A stretch of 64,000 nt of DNA from a phage. This document shows, piece after piece, positions 4,770-9,365 of the stretch. Below the pieces are notes generated by a model, which worked only from the letters and a program-made list of their open reading frames with translations, was not told the DNA's origin and searched no databases. Where the stretch lies: NCBI GenBank assembly GCA_018027755.1, contig GCA_018027755.1_4098.1. One strand, written 5' to 3'. Numbering within the stretch: position 1 is the first letter of the stretch; each line of letters opens with the position of its first letter. Position numbers and translations under genes: made by a program.

Positions 4770-5324
4770 ATGAAATCTAAACCACAAATAGACGAAGCAC
4801 TGGGATTACCTAGTGCTCAACAATGGATTGAAATGACTGGTCAAGAACCAGAAGAAGATACAGAAATGGATTTGTATCAGGATGAAGACAAAACTGAAAC
4901 TGAAATATCATTGGAAGATGCAAAGATTGCAATGGAAAAGCTCAAAGCAATGCGTGTACAGTTGAGGGAATTACCTGATATTACTGCAAGAAAAACCCAA
5001 TTGGATCGTTTAGCACAAATGGCAGAACGAAAGTTTGAGGACATTTTTGATAGAGCATTTAATTGTGAAGATCGTTTTGCAGCAGAGATGATTAATGCTG
5101 CAAACTCTATGCTAAAAATAGCTCTTGATGCTCATGCAAAAATAATTGATTCAGATGTTAAATTAGTTGATCTCCAACTTAAAAAAGACAAAATGGAAAT
5201 TGAACTAAATTTGAAACCAAAAAAAGAACTTGAGTCTGTTGGTGACCCAGATGCAATTGAAGGGCAAACCGTAGTTCACAAAACCCGCAATGAAATGCTT
5301 GCATCAATGAACAGAAATAAATAA
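4770..5324 (+). CDS. hypothetical protein, acidic N-terminus and predicted coiled coil
   Basis: ORF with good coding density; composition only. Confidence 0.4.
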
Positions 5325-5351
5325 ATTAAACGACCTTATGGAGTTATTAAA

Positions 5352-5888
5352 ATGAATAGATTACAACAAATCCTAACTGAAAAGAAACCAGTTTATGAAT
5401 ACCGAGTTAAGTTTGCAGTTGAACCAACACCTGAGCAACTTAGTAAAGTAACACAGCGACTAATGGATCGCTATGATGCGTTTGAAATTGGAGCACTAAA
5501 GAAAACAATTTTTATGGAAAAACCATTAGATTTCTATGAATTAGATTGTGGTGAAATTTGGATGTTTGACTTTAAATGTCATCGTGGCGTTCAATCAAAT
5601 GTACTAATGTATGAAATTGGCAATTTACTAAGCATGACAGAAGCATTGATTCGTGTTCGTAGTAAAGATGAACCTCGTCAAATTGAAATGACTGATTTGG
5701 AAGATGATATCGATTTTGATGATGTTGATGAACCAGTTATTGGAGTGGATTTTGGTAAACCAGAAGACAGTTATGACTTAGCTGGACAACAACGTGCAAA
5801 CACTGCCGTTGATGATGCAATTGAAGCATCGAAAAAAGACAATAAATACTCTCAATATATGAGTGCTGGTTTTGGTAAAAAGGATTAA
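5352..5888 (+). CDS. hypothetical protein
   Basis: ORF in tightly packed plus-strand gene series; acidic D/E-rich segment. Confidence 0.4.
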   Translation: MNRLQQILTEKKPVYEYRVKFAVEPTPEQLSKVTQRLMDRYDAFEIGALKKTIFMEKPLDFYELDCGEIWMFDFKCHRGVQSNVLMYEIGNLLSMTEALIRVRSKDEPRQIEMTDLEDDIDFDDVDEPVIGVDFGKPEDSYDLAGQQRANTAVDDAIEASKKDNKYSQYMSAGFGKKD

Positions 5889-5891
5889 CAC

Positions 5892-6434
5892 ATGAGTATA
5901 CTTAATGAAATGTTAGATTATGAAGACAATGAGTTAAATGAAGCTCGTCCTTATAGTCGTTCACAAAGTGCAGTTGATAGTGCAAAAGGAAAAGTAAAAG
6001 GCTTTTTTGGTAGTGGACAGATTGAACAAGGTGCACAAGAAGTTGGTGCTGAAGCCAACCGCTTATGGGCAGAGTTTAAACGTTATGTTGGACGTAAATA
6101 TGGTAAAGCTCAACCATCAGTACCTTACGCTGATGTGGCACAGTTTTTTAAAGGTAACAATCTTGATATTAAACATTTAGGGAACAATCCTCGTCGTTCT
6201 TTTACACCAAAAGATGTAGGTACTGCTCTATTAAATGCTGCTCGTGATATAATGAATGACTACCGTGACCAACAAGGTGGCGAAGAAAGTTCAGAATCAC
6301 AACCATCACAATCGACCTCAACTGAGCAACCAGCACAACAAGAACAACCAAAAGCACAAGGTTCCAGTATCCCTGATGCTCTACAAAAATTAAGTCCAGA
6401 GCAACGCGACCAACTGTTACGTATGCTTTCTTAA
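5892..6434 (+). CDS. hypothetical protein with Q/S/E-rich low-complexity tail
   Basis: ORF packed 4 nt after the previous stop. Confidence 0.4.
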   Translation: MSILNEMLDYEDNELNEARPYSRSQSAVDSAKGKVKGFFGSGQIEQGAQEVGAEANRLWAEFKRYVGRKYGKAQPSVPYADVAQFFKGNNLDIKHLGNNPRRSFTPKDVGTALLNAARDIMNDYRDQQGGEESSESQPSQSTSTEQPAQQEQPKAQGSSIPDALQKLSPEQRDQLLRMLS

Positions 6435-7965: not shown

Positions 7966-7987
7966 TAACTAAAAGGATTTATTTAAA

Positions 7988-8968
7988 ATGGCTAAAAAAA
8001 TTAATGAAGCACAAGTTAAAATCGATATCGCAGGTTTAGAATCTGATGATTTGGAAACTCTATCACGTATGTTAGCTCTTGCTGGTCAAGCTGAACGTCA
8101 AGACCCAGTAGTTGCCGCTCCAGTACCATCTATGGGGTCTATGACTCCATCTCTTCCACCTATTGCTCCACTAGATCTCGATTCTATTGGTGCTGAAGAA
8201 GAAATTGGTGGAATTGAAACTTCAGTTGAAGACCCACTAGCAGCGGCAGTTGATGATCTTTCCGCTGATGTTGGTGATTTTGGTGCTGACACAGATGAAG
8301 TTAGTATGGATGCTGAATTTTCAGAACCAGGTGTAGAAGGTGAAGAAGATTTTTCTCTTGACCTTAGTGGTCAACCTCAACTAGAATCAGTTGAAGAAGA
8401 CGATGAGGAAGAAGAAGAAATTATTGAAGAAGAATTCGATTTTAGTCGTATGCTATCTCTTGCTGGTATTAACGAAGAAGAAGACGAAGATTTTTCAGTA
8501 GAGGGTAATCCTGCTACCGATAAAGAAATGAAAGATACCCAATTTCTACCAGATCTAAGTATCTCTGAAGATGAAGAACCATCTAACAGTACTGATTATG
8601 GTCCATATGATACAGAAGCTGATGCCGTTCGTGATGGTCAACTAAAGACTAATGGTGTTGAAGGTGACCATTTTGTTGTAATTGCAAAAGGCAATCAATT
8701 TTATTGGAGACGTGTTGTAGATGAAGATCTTGACAATCGTCCAGAACCTGAGTATTATGATAATGAAGGGAACGAAAATCGTGTTCATAAATTTGAACCA
8801 AAATTCCCAGGCACTGCATTAGGAGATAACCCACTAAATGTTAATGAAAGTGAAGAAGATGATTCACCTGAAGGTAACATTGACTTGGAAGATGATTCTG
8901 ATGAAGAAGTAGAAGATATTTTTGAAAGTCTCCAAGAAAAATACAAGAAATTTTTAGGAGACAAATAA
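7988..8968 (+). CDS. highly acidic, low-complexity protein
   Basis: Very D/E-rich; repeated motif SRMLALAGQ / SRMLSLAGI; no fold recognised. Confidence 0.45.
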   Translation: MAKKINEAQVKIDIAGLESDDLETLSRMLALAGQAERQDPVVAAPVPSMGSMTPSLPPIAPLDLDSIGAEEEIGGIETSVEDPLAAAVDDLSADVGDFGADTDEVSMDAEFSEPGVEGEEDFSLDLSGQPQLESVEEDDEEEEEIIEEEFDFSRMLSLAGINEEEDEDFSVEGNPATDKEMKDTQFLPDLSISEDEEPSNSTDYGPYDTEADAVRDGQLKTNGVEGDHFVVIAKGNQFYWRRVVDEDLDNRPEPEYYDNEGNENRVHKFEPKFPGTALGDNPLNVNESEEDDSPEGNIDLEDDSDEEVEDIFESLQEKYKKFLGDK

Positions 8969-8969
8969 T

Positions 8970-9365
8970 ATGCAATATAATTATCGTGAACTAGTTGAAG
9001 CGTTAGACGAAATTACCGGAAGAGATGAAGACGAAAGTTTTTCAGTTGAAGTTGAATCCGATGTTGTAGCAGTTGATGTTCTTAAGGATATTACCAAATG
9101 TCTTATTGATATTGTTGATAAGATTAAATCTGGTGAAGACCAAAAAGAAATTGTAGATAAACTACAAAAAGCCTGTGACATTTTGTCTGACATTCGATAT
9201 AATGATGAAAGTACTGAAGTTGCTGATGAAGAAGTGTTGGAAGCCATTGCAGGTTGTTTTGGAACTGAAGGTATGGGACCAACAATTGACAAAGAAGGCG
9301 TACAACACTATAATGAGCCTGGTGCACCATCATATGCTGCACGTCAAGGTTTTGTTGGAGACTAA
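8970..9365 (+). CDS. small acidic protein
   Basis: 131 aa, strongly acidic; start 2 nt after previous stop. Confidence 0.4.
   Translation: MQYNYRELVEALDEITGRDEDESFSVEVESDVVAVDVLKDITKCLIDIVDKIKSGEDQKEIVDKLQKACDILSDIRYNDESTEVADEEVLEAIAGCFGTEGMGPTIDKEGVQHYNEPGAPSYAARQGFVGD

What the first reader, a model, noticed from the sequence alone, without database searches (positions are those of the whole stretch)
4770..9365. Cluster of acidic, low-complexity early-strand proteins (possible DNA mimics or internal proteins)
Several consecutive plus-strand genes encode strongly acidic or disordered proteins (notably 7988-8968 with repeated SRML[AS]LAG motif and long D/E runs, and the 131-aa acidic protein at 8970-9365). 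Acidic small proteins in phages are often DNA-mimic anti-restriction factors or capsid internal proteins; the function here is unassigned.
Basis: inference. Interest (0 to 1): 0.45.

Follow-up and report, generated by a model that had tools for sequence, protein, structure and literature searches.

The report
Acidic virion proteins of jumbo phage 121Q
This is a conserved late-gene block of the giant E. coli phage 121Q whose acidic, largely disordered products are already known to travel in the virus particle; their N-terminal cleavage-type motifs suggest they are packed inside the head, not that they are early DNA-mimic anti-restriction factors.

Summary
The window is Escherichia phage 121Q (Asteriusvirus, Rak2-like jumbo myovirus), 100% identical. 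The finding covers genes 556-561. gp560 (pI 4.05, net -75) and gp561 (pI 4.10, net -21) are extreme, gp556 and gp557 are moderately acidic, and gp558 and gp559 are not acidic. 'Early-strand' is not supported: the genes lie in a terminator-free run behind the tail tube and T4 gp4-like head-completion genes, with late-type TAAATA motifs upstream of gp557, gp558 and gp560. 'Function unassigned' is only half true, because homologues of gp557-561 were found by virion mass spectrometry in RaK2, GAP32, CBB, phAPEC6 and JP4. Four of the seven proteins (556, 558, 560, 561) carry a conserved [LIV]xE[AS] motif within residues 5-18. The same signature marks T4 gp21 substrates and 121Q's own capsid, scaffold and gp600 proteins, and 121Q encodes an S77 (gp21-type) protease. 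The best reading (about 0.5) is that they are prohead-targeted, protease-trimmed internal head proteins and candidates for the unidentified 121Q inner body. No fold, family or conservation evidence supports a DNA mimic; gp561's structure was not modelled. Cleavage and head location are inferred, not shown.

The parts
4770..5324 (+). gp556: 184 aa, pI 4.77, net -12. Never detected in virions. N-terminus MKSKPQIDE|ALGLP.
   Evidence: ORF and annotation. Charge. [IV]xE[AS] followed by LGLP/LGI/LNLP is conserved in 8 of 8 orthologues. PHROG 16202, function unknown. Absent from all five virion proteomes.
5352..5888 (+). gp557: 178 aa virion protein. Ferredoxin-like domain (residues 12-105), acidic disordered linker, conserved C-terminal YMSAGFGKK.
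5892..6434 (+). gp558: 180 aa, pI 5.33, with a low-complexity Q/S/E-rich C-terminal half. N-terminus ...NELNE|ARPYSR.
   Evidence: LxE before (A/D/none)RPYSR in 6 of 8 orthologues, displaced in XaC1 and replaced by MDE in the Vibrio phage. MS-detected in GAP32 and RaK2. The RefSeq/PHROG label 'Hsp70' has no Pfam support.
6448..7965 (+). gp559: 505 aa virion protein built from three copies of a ~95-aa repeat plus K/E-rich linkers. No N-terminal motif.
   Evidence: Self-BLASTP 4e-12 and 6e-5. MS-detected in RaK2 gp049, GAP32_206 and phAPEC6 gp268c. Length varies from 291 to 505 aa among orthologues.
7988..8968 (+). gp560: 326 aa polyanionic, mostly disordered virion protein (net -75).
   Evidence: MS-detected in RaK2 gp050, CBB_213 (5 peptides) and phAPEC6 gp267c. 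About 100 homologues, the named ones all from Rak2-like phages.
7988..8008 (+). Putative 7-residue propeptide of gp560 (MAKKINE|A).
   Evidence: [LIVM]xEA lies within the first 15 residues in 85 of 89 family members. N6, E7 and A8 are at least 90% conserved. Cleavage is inferred, not shown.
8063..8086 (+). First SRMLALAG motif of gp560 (aa 26-33), inside the predicted helix 19-35.
   Evidence: L31, A32 and G33 are invariant.
8444..8467 (+). Second SRMLSLAG motif of gp560 (aa 153-160), inside the predicted helix 152-158.
   Evidence: F150, M155 and A159 are at least 90% conserved.
8594..8713 (+). Small beta-alpha-beta-beta domain of gp560 (aa 203-242), the only confidently folded part.
   Evidence: AF2 pLDDT is 88-95 over residues 201-240. 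T221, N222, G223, F229, W240 and R242 are invariant. No PDB fold match.
8970..9365 (+). gp561: 131 aa, net -21. N-terminus MQYNYRELVE|ALDE; conserved C-terminal GTEGMxP...SYAARQGFVG.
   Evidence: MS-detected in RaK2 gp051 and CBB_214. Only 30 relatives among 1.84 billion representative proteins.
9369..9749 (+). gp562: 126 aa, last syntenic gene of the block. Not detected in virions.
4311..4739 (+). T4 gp4-like head completion protein (gene 555), immediately upstream.
   Evidence: Pfam Tn7_TnsA-like_N 2.1e-16. PHROG 218 'head closure' 1.8e-40.
2388..2393 (+). TAAATA late-promoter-like core, 41 nt upstream of tube paralogue 553 and just after the terminator at 2356-2377. Probable start of the transcription unit that contains the block.
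5318..5323 (+). TAAATA core 34 nt upstream of the gp557 start codon.
5843..5848 (+). TAAATA core 49 nt upstream of the gp558 start codon.
7949..7954 (+). TAAATA core 39 nt upstream of the gp560 start codon.
10064..11389 (+). MoxR-type AAA+ ATPase (gene 563, N4 gp24-like), the downstream neighbour. Detected in phAPEC6 virions.
   Evidence: Sigma-70 consensus promoter at 9867-9894.
11464..12888 (+). DUF2201 metallopeptidase plus vWA protein (gene 564), mislabelled 'HNH endonuclease'.
   Evidence: Pfam DUF2201_N 2.7e-34 and DUF2201 7e-21. One peptide in JP4 virions. Proposed by Iyer et al. to be a virion-assembly cochaperone and processing peptidase.

Best explanation
Genes 556-561 (with 562) form a late-expressed morphogenetic block that is conserved in all Rak2-like jumbo phages.

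The proposed mechanism has three steps.
1. gp556, gp558, gp560 and gp561 are made with a short N-terminal propeptide of 6-17 residues that ends in [LIV]-x-Glu and is followed by Ala or Ser. This is the same kind of tag as the T4 capsid-targeting sequence. It takes them into the assembling prohead core.
2. The phage's T4 gp21-type serine protease (gene 601, Peptidase_S77) cuts after the Glu.
3. The mature gp558, gp560 and gp561, together with gp557 and gp559, stay inside the DNA-filled head as internal or ejection proteins. gp556, which is never seen in virions, would be degraded or expelled like a core or scaffold protein.

In gp560 the conserved short helices (SRMLxLAG twice, and a C-terminal helix) and the 40-residue domain would make the protein-protein contacts. 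The variable polyanionic linkers would act as DNA-repelling, space-filling spacers. That fits a contribution to the DNA-free axial 'inner body' seen in 121Q and phAPEC6.

What is shown: the genes, their charge and disorder, synteny, presence in virions, motif conservation, and the protease family.

What is inferred: late timing, targeting, cleavage, location in the head, and any role in the inner body.
For: **1. Presence in virions**
- RaK2 gp047-051 were all detected.
- CBB_210, 213 and 214 were detected.
- GAP32_204, 205 and 206 were detected.
- phAPEC6 gp270c, 268c and 267c were detected.
- JP4_291 was detected.

**2. The N-terminal motif is enriched**
- [LIV]xE[AS] occurs within the first 20 residues in 4 of the 7 block proteins, against 1 of 35 other ORFs in the window. 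Fisher p = 0.0015. The composition-based expectation is 3-6% per protein.

**3. The motif is conserved**
- gp560: 85 of 89 homologues.
- gp556: 8 of 8 orthologues.
- gp561: 6 of 8 orthologues and most of the distant relatives.
- gp558: LxE before the conserved RPYSR in 6 of 8 orthologues, displaced in XaC1 and MDE in the Vibrio phage.

**4. The same motif marks known or expected protease substrates**
- In the 121Q head module it is found in gp599, the acidic gp600 (MANLKLLQE|A), the scaffold (MSKLEKLLKE|S) and the major capsid protein (LNE|S; also LTE|S at residue 41).
- In T4 it is found in gp67 (MEGLIE|A), gp22 (IAE|A), gp24 (LRE|S) and gp23 (LTE|A at residue 63), but not within the first 75 residues of T4 sheath, tube or portal.

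**5. The protease is present**
- 121Q gene 601 matches Pfam Peptidase_S77 at 9.9e-21, and the capsid protein belongs to the Gp23 family.

**6. There is a T4 precedent for a hyper-acidic head-core protein**
- T4 gp67 is 80 aa, pI 4.05 and 44% D/E.

**7. An inner body exists and its components are unknown**
- 121Q and phAPEC6 show a phiKZ-like inner body in bubblegrams, 91 x 18 nm in phAPEC6.
- No phAPEC6 protein resembles the phiKZ inner-body proteins.

**8. The layout is that of late genes**
- No terminator-like site lies on the + strand between 2377 and 11409.
- The TAAATA core is 23-fold enriched upstream of structural genes, and copies lie 34-49 nt before the gp557, gp558 and gp560 start codons.

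**9. Background from the literature**
- T4 capsid-targeting sequences are 10-20-residue N-terminal propeptides removed by gp21, which cuts after Glu. Cleaved proteins are taken to be head proteins (PMC5694885 and PMC9026906).
Against: - No peptide-level data were available, so cleavage after the motif Glu is unproven.
- I defined the motif after seeing the sequences. The choice was guided by T4 specificity, so the p-value is optimistic.
- gp557, the most consistently detected protein, and gp559 lack a conserved motif.
- The block sits next to the tail sheath and tube genes, about 60 kb from the portal-protease-scaffold-capsid module.
- MS coverage of gp560 and gp561 is low (1-5 peptides). gp560 has only 21 K/R residues and so yields few tryptic peptides, which may partly explain this.
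- A net -75 protein packed against DNA is electrostatically awkward.
- There is no sequence or fold homology to T4 internal proteins, to T4 gp67/gp68 or to phiKZ inner-body proteins.
- The phAPEC6 authors favour RCC1-like proteins as inner-body candidates.
- In JP4 the capsid protein band runs at about the unprocessed size, so the extent of processing in this clade is uncertain.
Confidence: 0.5

Rival explanations
1. They are virion components outside the head interior. They could be neck, tail or surface accessories: parts of the collar or tail decorations, anchors of the 'hairy' fibres seen on phAPEC6, 121Q and CBB, or tail-lumen proteins. In this reading they are encoded with the sheath, tube and head-completion genes because they assemble there.
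For: - The gene position is directly downstream of the sheath, three tube paralogues and the gp4-like head-completion gene, and this order is conserved in all Rak2-like phages.
- In Atu_ph07 the gp557 homologue is still near the tube and head-closure genes.
- phAPEC6 has unassigned collar and tail decoration densities and fibres.
- gp557 and gp559 have no cleavage-type motif.
Against: - gp560 and gp561 are largely disordered or linker-rich polyanions, not fibre-like or shell-like folds.
- The conserved N-terminal [LIV]xE[AS] signature is shared with head-module proteins. It is absent from every other ORF checked in the window, which includes all its tail, baseplate and fibre genes, except the non-structural DprA-like gene 567.
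- Gene 555, the immediate neighbour, is itself a head-completion protein.
Confidence: 0.2
2. They are assembly factors or clients, not functional virion parts. They would be acidic scaffold- or chaperone-like proteins that work with, or are processed by, the adjacent MoxR AAA+ ATPase and metallopeptidase-vWA pair, and they would turn up in virion preparations only as remnants.
For: - Adjacency to the MoxR and DUF2201-vWA genes is conserved throughout the clade.
- Iyer et al. propose that this pair chaperones virion assembly and processes structural proteins.
- gp556 and gp562 are never detected in virions, and gp560 and gp561 give few peptides.
- MoxR itself is found in phAPEC6 virions and the vWA protein in JP4 virions. 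This shows that such factors can co-purify.
Against: - gp557 is detected in five of five proteomes at 19-60% coverage.
- gp559, gp560 and gp561 recur in independent studies from different laboratories and hosts.
- MoxR and vWA have their own sigma-70-type promoters and terminators, so they are probably transcribed differently from the block.
Confidence: 0.15
3. gp561 and/or gp560 are DNA-mimic anti-restriction or anti-defence proteins. They could be delivered with the DNA from the capsid, as T4 IPI* or the P1 Dar proteins are.
For: - gp561 is small and strongly acidic, the general size and charge class of known small DNA mimics such as T7 Ocr (comparison recalled, not checked here).
- Both proteins are in virions, so they could be injected.
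- The hypothesis is compatible with the best explanation, because it concerns function after ejection.
Against: - No Pfam match to any antirestriction or DNA-mimic family at E<=0.1.
- The gp560 model is mostly disordered and has no PDB fold match.
- In both families the acidic segments vary in length and sequence. The conserved positions are hydrophobic or Gly/aromatic motifs. A rigid DNA-like charge array would show the opposite pattern.
- The genes are not in an early region.
Confidence: 0.08

Closest known systems
T4 prohead core protein gp67, precursor of an acidic internal peptide (this role is recalled from the T4 literature, not checked here)
   Same: - Hyper-acidic and low-complexity: T4 gp67 has pI 4.05 and 44% D/E, and gp560 has pI 4.05 and 29% D/E.
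- A short N-terminal [LI]xE|A motif: MEGLIE|A in gp67, MAKKINE|A in gp560.
- Both phages have an S77 protease and a Gp23-family capsid protein.
   Different: - No detectable sequence homology.
- gp560 is four times longer and has conserved helices and a small folded domain.
- It is encoded next to tail genes rather than between the portal and protease genes. In 121Q that position is occupied by another acidic protein, gp600.
- Processing of gp560 is unproven.
T4 internal proteins IPI-III and Alt, which carry a capsid-targeting sequence
   Same: - An N-terminal tag of about 10 residues ending in Glu and followed by a small residue.
- Proteins packaged in the head and not part of the shell.
- A candidate ejection role.
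   Different: - T4 internal-protein sequences were not examined here.
- No homology was found by Pfam or PHROGs.
- The CTS function of the 121Q N-termini is untested.
phiKZ / SPN3US inner-body and ejection proteins (Pfam phiKZ_IP)
   Same: - 121Q and phAPEC6 show the same linear bubblegram inner body.
- Both have several head proteins clustered in the genome and predicted to be cut after Glu by a gp21-related protease.
   Different: - phiKZ_IP similarity to gp561 is sub-threshold (13.7 bits against a cut-off of 27) and is seen in only 1 of 20 diverse family members.
- phiKZ propeptides are usually longer than 100 residues, with an S/A/G-x-E motif.
- The Rak2-like phages belong to a different, T4-related lineage.
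DNA-mimic anti-restriction proteins (T7 Ocr, ArdA)
   Same: Small size and strong negative charge, for gp561.
   Different: - No family match.
- No evidence of a rigid fold with a conserved charge pattern.
- Late structural context and presence in virions, rather than early expression.

Membership tests
T4-type prohead-protease (gp21) substrates / CTS-bearing head proteins | The phage encodes a gp21-family (Peptidase_S77) prohead protease. | tested here: met
   121Q gene 601 matches Pfam PF03420 at E 9.9e-21, 74.6 bits, against a cut-off of 27.
T4-type prohead-protease (gp21) substrates / CTS-bearing head proteins | A short N-terminal propeptide ending in (L/I)-x-Glu and followed by a small residue, conserved among orthologues. 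| tested here: met
   Met for gp556, gp558, gp560 and gp561. Not met for gp557 and gp559. The T4 reference motifs were verified.
T4-type prohead-protease (gp21) substrates / CTS-bearing head proteins | Cleavage actually occurs, so that the mature N-terminus follows the Glu. | not testable with these tools
   Only protein-level MS tables are available. No semi-tryptic peptide data.
T4-type prohead-protease (gp21) substrates / CTS-bearing head proteins | The protein resides inside the head. | not testable with these tools
   The proteomes are of whole virions. No Rak2-like virion model in the PDB contains these proteins.
T4-type prohead-protease (gp21) substrates / CTS-bearing head proteins | Sequence homology to T4 internal proteins, gp67, gp68 or gp22. 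| tested here: not met
   No Pfam or PHROG link. gp556 against T4 gp22 gives E 0.3. The resemblance is functional, not family membership.
phiKZ-like internal head proteins (Pfam PF12699) | Match to the family profile above the gathering score. | tested here: not met
   gp561 scores 13.7 bits against a cut-off of 27. The best E among close relatives is 3.6e-4, and only 1 of 20 diverse members matches.
DNA-mimic anti-restriction proteins (Ocr, ArdA and similar) | Sequence match to a known family. | tested here: not met
   No such Pfam family appears at E<=0.1 for any of the six proteins or for the gp561 family members.
DNA-mimic anti-restriction proteins (Ocr, ArdA and similar) | A compact fold displaying a conserved DNA-like array of carboxylates. 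| tested here: inconclusive
   gp560 is mostly disordered, has no fold match, and its acidic linkers are variable. For gp561 the acidic linkers vary in length, but no 3D model was made.
DNA-mimic anti-restriction proteins (Ocr, ArdA and similar) | Inhibits restriction or defence in vivo. | not testable with these tools
   Requires experiments.
Hsp70 (RefSeq/PHROG label on gp558) | An HSP70 ATPase or substrate-binding domain. | tested here: not met
   No HSP70 Pfam match. gp558 is 180 aa with only a chance-level FAM110_C hit. The label comes from PHROG 16152.

The most novel reading that the evidence does not exclude
The block gp557-561, together with the unlinked acidic gp600, encodes the long-unidentified inner body of 121Q-type (Rak2-like) jumbo phages.

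This would be a structure analogous to the phiKZ inner body but evolutionarily unrelated to it. It would be built largely from polyanionic, intrinsically disordered proteins that enter the prohead through T4-style capsid-targeting peptides. They would hold an axial, DNA-free rod by electrostatic exclusion and would be expelled ahead of the genome. Once in the cell, the polyanions could also act as decoys for DNA-binding host defences.
Probability: 0.2. Interest if true: 0.7.

Novelty: new member of a known kind. Interest (0 to 1): 0.4.

Why it matters
Two groups have imaged an inner body in 121Q and phAPEC6 capsids, but no component has been identified, and none resembles the phiKZ proteins. 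A short list of candidates, each with a predicted targeting and cleavage site, makes the question directly testable. The tests are semi-specific MS, head-versus-tail fractionation and gene knock-outs.

If the 6-10-residue tags do target proteins into the prohead, they could also be used to package foreign proteins into a very large capsid, as the T4 CTS is used.

If the block turns out to be neck or tail accessories, the finding is ordinary.

Tried and rejected
- **Solved structures.** Sequence searches against the PDB for gp556, gp557 (as a profile), gp558, gp559, gp560 and gp561 gave nothing meaningful. There is no Rak2-like tube or capsid structure either.
- **gp560 structure.** The AF2 model is mostly low confidence. 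Foldseek against the PDB gave a best E of 3.3.
- **phiKZ_IP lead for gp561.** It recurs in 4 of 12 close relatives but in only 1 of 20 diverse members. I rejected it as compositional.
- **Pairwise homology.** gp560 against the acidic head-module protein gp600, and gp556 against the 121Q scaffold and T4 gp22, showed no similarity.
- **Peptide-level MS evidence of processing.** The JP4 supplement lists proteins only and none of the diagnostic peptides. No phAPEC6 supplement is held.
- **Canonical T4 late promoter.** TATAAATA is depleted in the window (2 copies against 10.6 expected). The shorter TAAATA core was used instead.
- **Literature.** Searches for a functional assignment in Asteriusvirus and Rak2 papers found none.

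
Full report
**Identity of the window**

The 4.6-kb region is 100% identical to Escherichia phage 121Q (Asteriusvirus, a Rak2-like jumbo myovirus of 348.5 kb). It is 99.5-99.9% identical to SP27, G17, Sharanji, phAPEC6, PBECO4, JP4 and others. Window position 4770 corresponds to 121Q position 269032.

The six ORFs of the finding are GenBank genes 556-561. The genes around them are:
- Upstream: tail sheath (551), three tube-like paralogues (552-554), and a T4 gp4-like head-completion protein (555; Pfam TnsA-like N 2.1e-16, PHROG 'head closure' 1.8e-40).
- Downstream: gp562, a MoxR-type AAA+ ATPase (563), and a DUF2201 metallopeptidase-vWA protein (564).

**The observation**

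| Protein | Length (aa) | D+E | Net charge | pI |
|---|---|---|---|---|
| gp556 | 184 | 21.7% | -12 | 4.77 |
| gp557 | 178 | 20.2% | -12 | 4.63 |
| gp558 | 180 | 13.9% | -3 | 5.33 |
| gp559 | 505 | 15.4% | -9 | 5.71 |
| gp560 | 326 | 29.4% | -75 | 4.05 |
| gp561 | 131 | 25.2% | -21 | 4.10 |

- gp560 and gp561 are outliers. gp556 and gp557 are moderately acidic. gp558 and gp559 are not acidic.
- The four most D/E-rich of the 43 ORFs in the window all lie in this block, so the clustering is not chance.
- The SRML[AS]LAG motif occurs at residues 26-33 and 153-160 of gp560.
- AlphaFold2 on an 89-sequence alignment gives a mean pLDDT of 60.4 and a pTM of 0.27 for gp560. Confident or helical elements are limited to helices 19-35, 83-92, 152-158 and 308-323 and a small beta-alpha-beta-beta domain (203-242, pLDDT about 90).
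- 'Acidic and disordered' is therefore right for gp560, plausible for parts of gp557 and gp561, and wrong for gp558 and gp559 as far as acidity goes.

**Not early genes**

- The block is co-oriented with the tube and head-completion genes and tightly packed against them.
- Terminator-like hairpins follow the sheath gene (1259-1280), gene 552 (2356-2377), gene 563 (11409-11436) and gene 564 (12899-12924). None lies on the + strand between 2377 and 11409.
- The hexamer TAAATA, the core of the T4 late promoter, occurs at 0.34 per kb per strand in the window but at 8.0 per kb in the intergenic regions upstream of genes.
- It sits 17-49 nt before the start codons of structural genes, including tube genes 552 and 553, and also before gp557 (5318), gp558 (5843) and gp560 (7949).
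- It is absent upstream of genes 563 and 564, which instead have sigma-70-type promoters, including a perfect 12/12 match at 9867-9894.
- 121Q encodes a late sigma factor (gene 591).
- Late expression is inferred from this layout. No transcriptome was available.

**The products are already known virion proteins**

| Phage | Homologues detected by virion MS | Source |
|---|---|---|
| RaK2 | gp047-051 (= gp557-561), all five | Table S3, |
| CBB | CBB_210 (13 peptides, 60.5%), CBB_213 (5 peptides), CBB_214 (1 peptide) | |
| GAP32 | 204, 205, 206 | CBB supplement, |
| phAPEC6 (99.8% identical to the window) | gp270c (= gp557), gp268c (= gp559), gp267c (= gp560) | |
| JP4 | JP4_291 (= gp557) | |

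- Homologues of gp556 and gp562 were never detected.
- None of these papers, and nothing else in the literature I searched, assigns a location or function.

**Conservation**

- The whole block, from sheath to MoxR and vWA, is syntenic in RaK2, CBB, GAP32, Serratia BF, Salmonella 7t3, Xanthomonas XaC1 and a marine Vibrio phage.
- gp560 has about 100 homologues in a 5.8-billion-protein collection. All 73 phage-record matches are Rak2-like phages, and the source names on the protein hits point the same way.
- gp561 has only 30 relatives among 1.84 billion representatives.
- In the gp560 family, net charge stays between -41 and -87 (median -67) while length varies from 221 to 456 aa.
- Five sequence islands are conserved: residues 1-36, 150-160, 187-194, 205-281 and 307-326. 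The acidic linkers are poorly conserved, with a mean top-residue frequency of about 0.4 and an occupancy of about 0.7.
- In gp561 the best conserved part is the non-acidic C-terminus (GTEGMxP...SYAARQGFVG). The acidic linkers differ in length.

**A lead towards mechanism**

The N-termini read as follows:
- gp556: MKSKPQIDE|A
- gp558: ...NELNE|A
- gp560: MAKKINE|A
- gp561: MQYNYRELVE|A

That is [LIV]-x-Glu followed by Ala or Ser, within the first 18 residues.

*Enrichment.* The motif is present in 4 of the 7 block proteins and in 1 of 35 other window ORFs (Fisher p = 0.0015). The composition-based expectation is 3-6% per protein.

*Conservation.*
- 85 of 89 gp560 homologues.
- 8 of 8 gp556 orthologues.
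- 6 of 8 gp561 orthologues, and most of the distant relatives of gp561.
- For gp558, LxE before the conserved RPYSR in 6 of 8 orthologues; XaC1 has it displaced and the Vibrio phage has MDE.
- The corresponding ILTE of gp557 is not conserved.

*Comparison with 121Q's own head module* (portal 598, 599, 600, protease 601, scaffold 602, capsid protein 603). Four of its seven proteins carry the motif in the first 20 residues:
- gp599.
- gp600: 282 aa, pI 4.06, net -54; MANLKLLQE|A.
- The gp22-like scaffold: MSKLEKLLKE|S.
- The capsid protein: LNE|S, plus LTE|S at residue 41.

*Comparison with T4*, read directly from NC_000866:
- The known gp21 substrates show the same pattern: gp67 (MEGLIE|A), gp22 (IAE|A at residue 7), gp24 (LRE|S at residue 8) and gp23 (LTE|A at residue 63).
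- The first 75 residues of T4 sheath, tube and portal do not have it.

*The protease.* 121Q gene 601 is a Peptidase_S77 (gp21-family) protease at 9.9e-21, and the capsid protein belongs to the Gp23 family.

*Published background.* In T4, 10-20-residue N-terminal capsid-targeting sequences bring internal proteins and Alt into the prohead core and are then removed by gp21, which cuts after Glu. In giant phages, cleaved proteins are taken to be head proteins.

*A direct precedent.* T4 gp67 (80 aa, pI 4.05, 44% D/E) is a hyper-acidic prohead-core protein with this kind of N-terminus.

**Best explanation (confidence about 0.5)**

The block encodes prohead-targeted, protease-trimmed internal head proteins. 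gp556 behaves like a core or scaffold protein that is removed. gp558, gp560 and gp561, and by association gp557 and gp559, stay in the head.

121Q and phAPEC6 contain a phiKZ-like inner body, 91 x 18 nm in phAPEC6. Its proteins are unidentified, and none resembles a phiKZ inner-body protein. These proteins, together with gp600, are therefore reasonable candidates.

My reading of gp560 is that its conserved helices and small domain mediate contacts, while the polyanionic linkers act as DNA-excluding spacers. That last step is speculation.

Targeting, cleavage and head location are inferred. No peptide-level MS data could be obtained.

**Rival explanations**

1. *Neck, tail or surface accessories (0.2).* The gene position favours this, as do the unassigned collar, tail and fibre densities in phAPEC6. 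The motif pattern and the disordered polyanionic nature argue against it.
2. *Assembly factors or clients of the neighbouring MoxR and metallopeptidase-vWA pair (0.15).* Iyer et al. propose that this pair chaperones virion assembly and processes structural proteins. Against it, gp557 is recovered in five of five proteomes and the others recur across independent studies.
3. *DNA-mimic anti-restriction proteins (0.08).* This is not exclusive of the best explanation. There is no family match and no fold match. The acidic parts are the least conserved, which is the opposite of what a rigid charge array predicts.

**Other checks**

- The weak phiKZ_IP hit of gp561 does not hold across the family.
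- None of the block proteins has a relative in the PDB, and no Rak2-like virion structure exists there.

**Novelty and score**

Virion association is published. Acidic, protease-processed head-core and internal proteins are a known kind (T4, phiKZ). What is new here is the specific, testable assignment of this block to that kind, and its candidacy for the 121Q inner body. I rate it as a new member of a known kind, with interest 0.4.

Noticed in passing
window 8730-9894 (+): A dense run of strong sigma-70-type promoter matches lies at the 3' end of the block. Two are perfect 12/12 consensus sites (9286-9314, inside gp561, and 9867-9894, in the 314-nt gap before the MoxR ATPase). Four more score 11/12 (8730, 9175, 9622, 9774). 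This suggests that genes 563 and 564, and perhaps 562, are transcribed by host RNA polymerase, separately from the late block.
   Followed up: partly
window, upstream of structural genes (e.g. 1607, 2388, 5318, 5843, 7949 on +; 17461, 23917, 33927, 46338, 50860 on -): TAAATA is 23-fold enriched in upstream intergenic regions (8.0 against 0.34 per kb per strand) and lies 17-49 nt before start codons. It is a candidate late-promoter core for the phage's gp55-like sigma factor. The full T4 octamer TATAAATA is depleted (2 copies against 10.6 expected).
   Followed up: partly
window 6448-7965 (gp559): gp559 contains three copies of a ~95-aa repeat (about residues 8-105, 138-238 and 296-400), each opening with [IV]P.G[YM]..[TS]..G. 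Orthologues range from 291 to 505 aa, which suggests a variable repeat number.
   Followed up: partly
window 5892-6434 (gp558) and 11464-12888 (gp564): Two RefSeq/PHROG product names look wrong. The 'Hsp70 heat shock protein' label on gp558 has no HSP70 domain behind it. The 'HNH endonuclease' label on gp564 is on a DUF2201 metallopeptidase plus vWA protein.
   Followed up: yes
L011 10880-11728 (121Q gene 600, outside the window): A second hyper-acidic virion protein (282 aa, pI 4.06, net -54, N-terminus MANLKLLQE|A) is encoded between the portal and prohead protease genes, the position held by gp67/gp68 in T4. It is not homologous to gp560.
   Followed up: partly
window 5352-5888 and 8970-9365 (C-termini of gp557 and gp561): Both proteins end in a conserved aromatic-Ala/Gly-Phe-Gly tail (Y.YMSAGFGKK and SYAARQGFVG). 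In gp561 this is the best conserved part of the family. It may be a shared docking peptide.
   Followed up: no
L004 4853-5473 (RaK2 ORF047); L003 6694 and 7826 (phAPEC6 gp270c, gp268c): Start codons are annotated inconsistently between phages. RaK2 gp047 carries a 24-residue hydrophobic N-terminal extension that all other homologues lack. phAPEC6 gp270c starts 37 codons and gp268c 49 codons downstream of the starts annotated in 121Q.
   Followed up: no
window 1648-4311: Three consecutive paralogous 'tail tube' genes (552-554; 228, 258 and 364 aa) follow the sheath gene. None has a relative in the PDB by sequence. The RaK2 authors proposed different proteins (gp106/107) as the tube.
   Followed up: no
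window 10064-11389 and 11464-12888: The MoxR ATPase was detected in phAPEC6 virions (6 peptides, 19%) and the vWA-metallopeptidase in JP4 virions (1 peptide). The putative assembly chaperone pair may itself be packaged or may co-purify.
   Followed up: no
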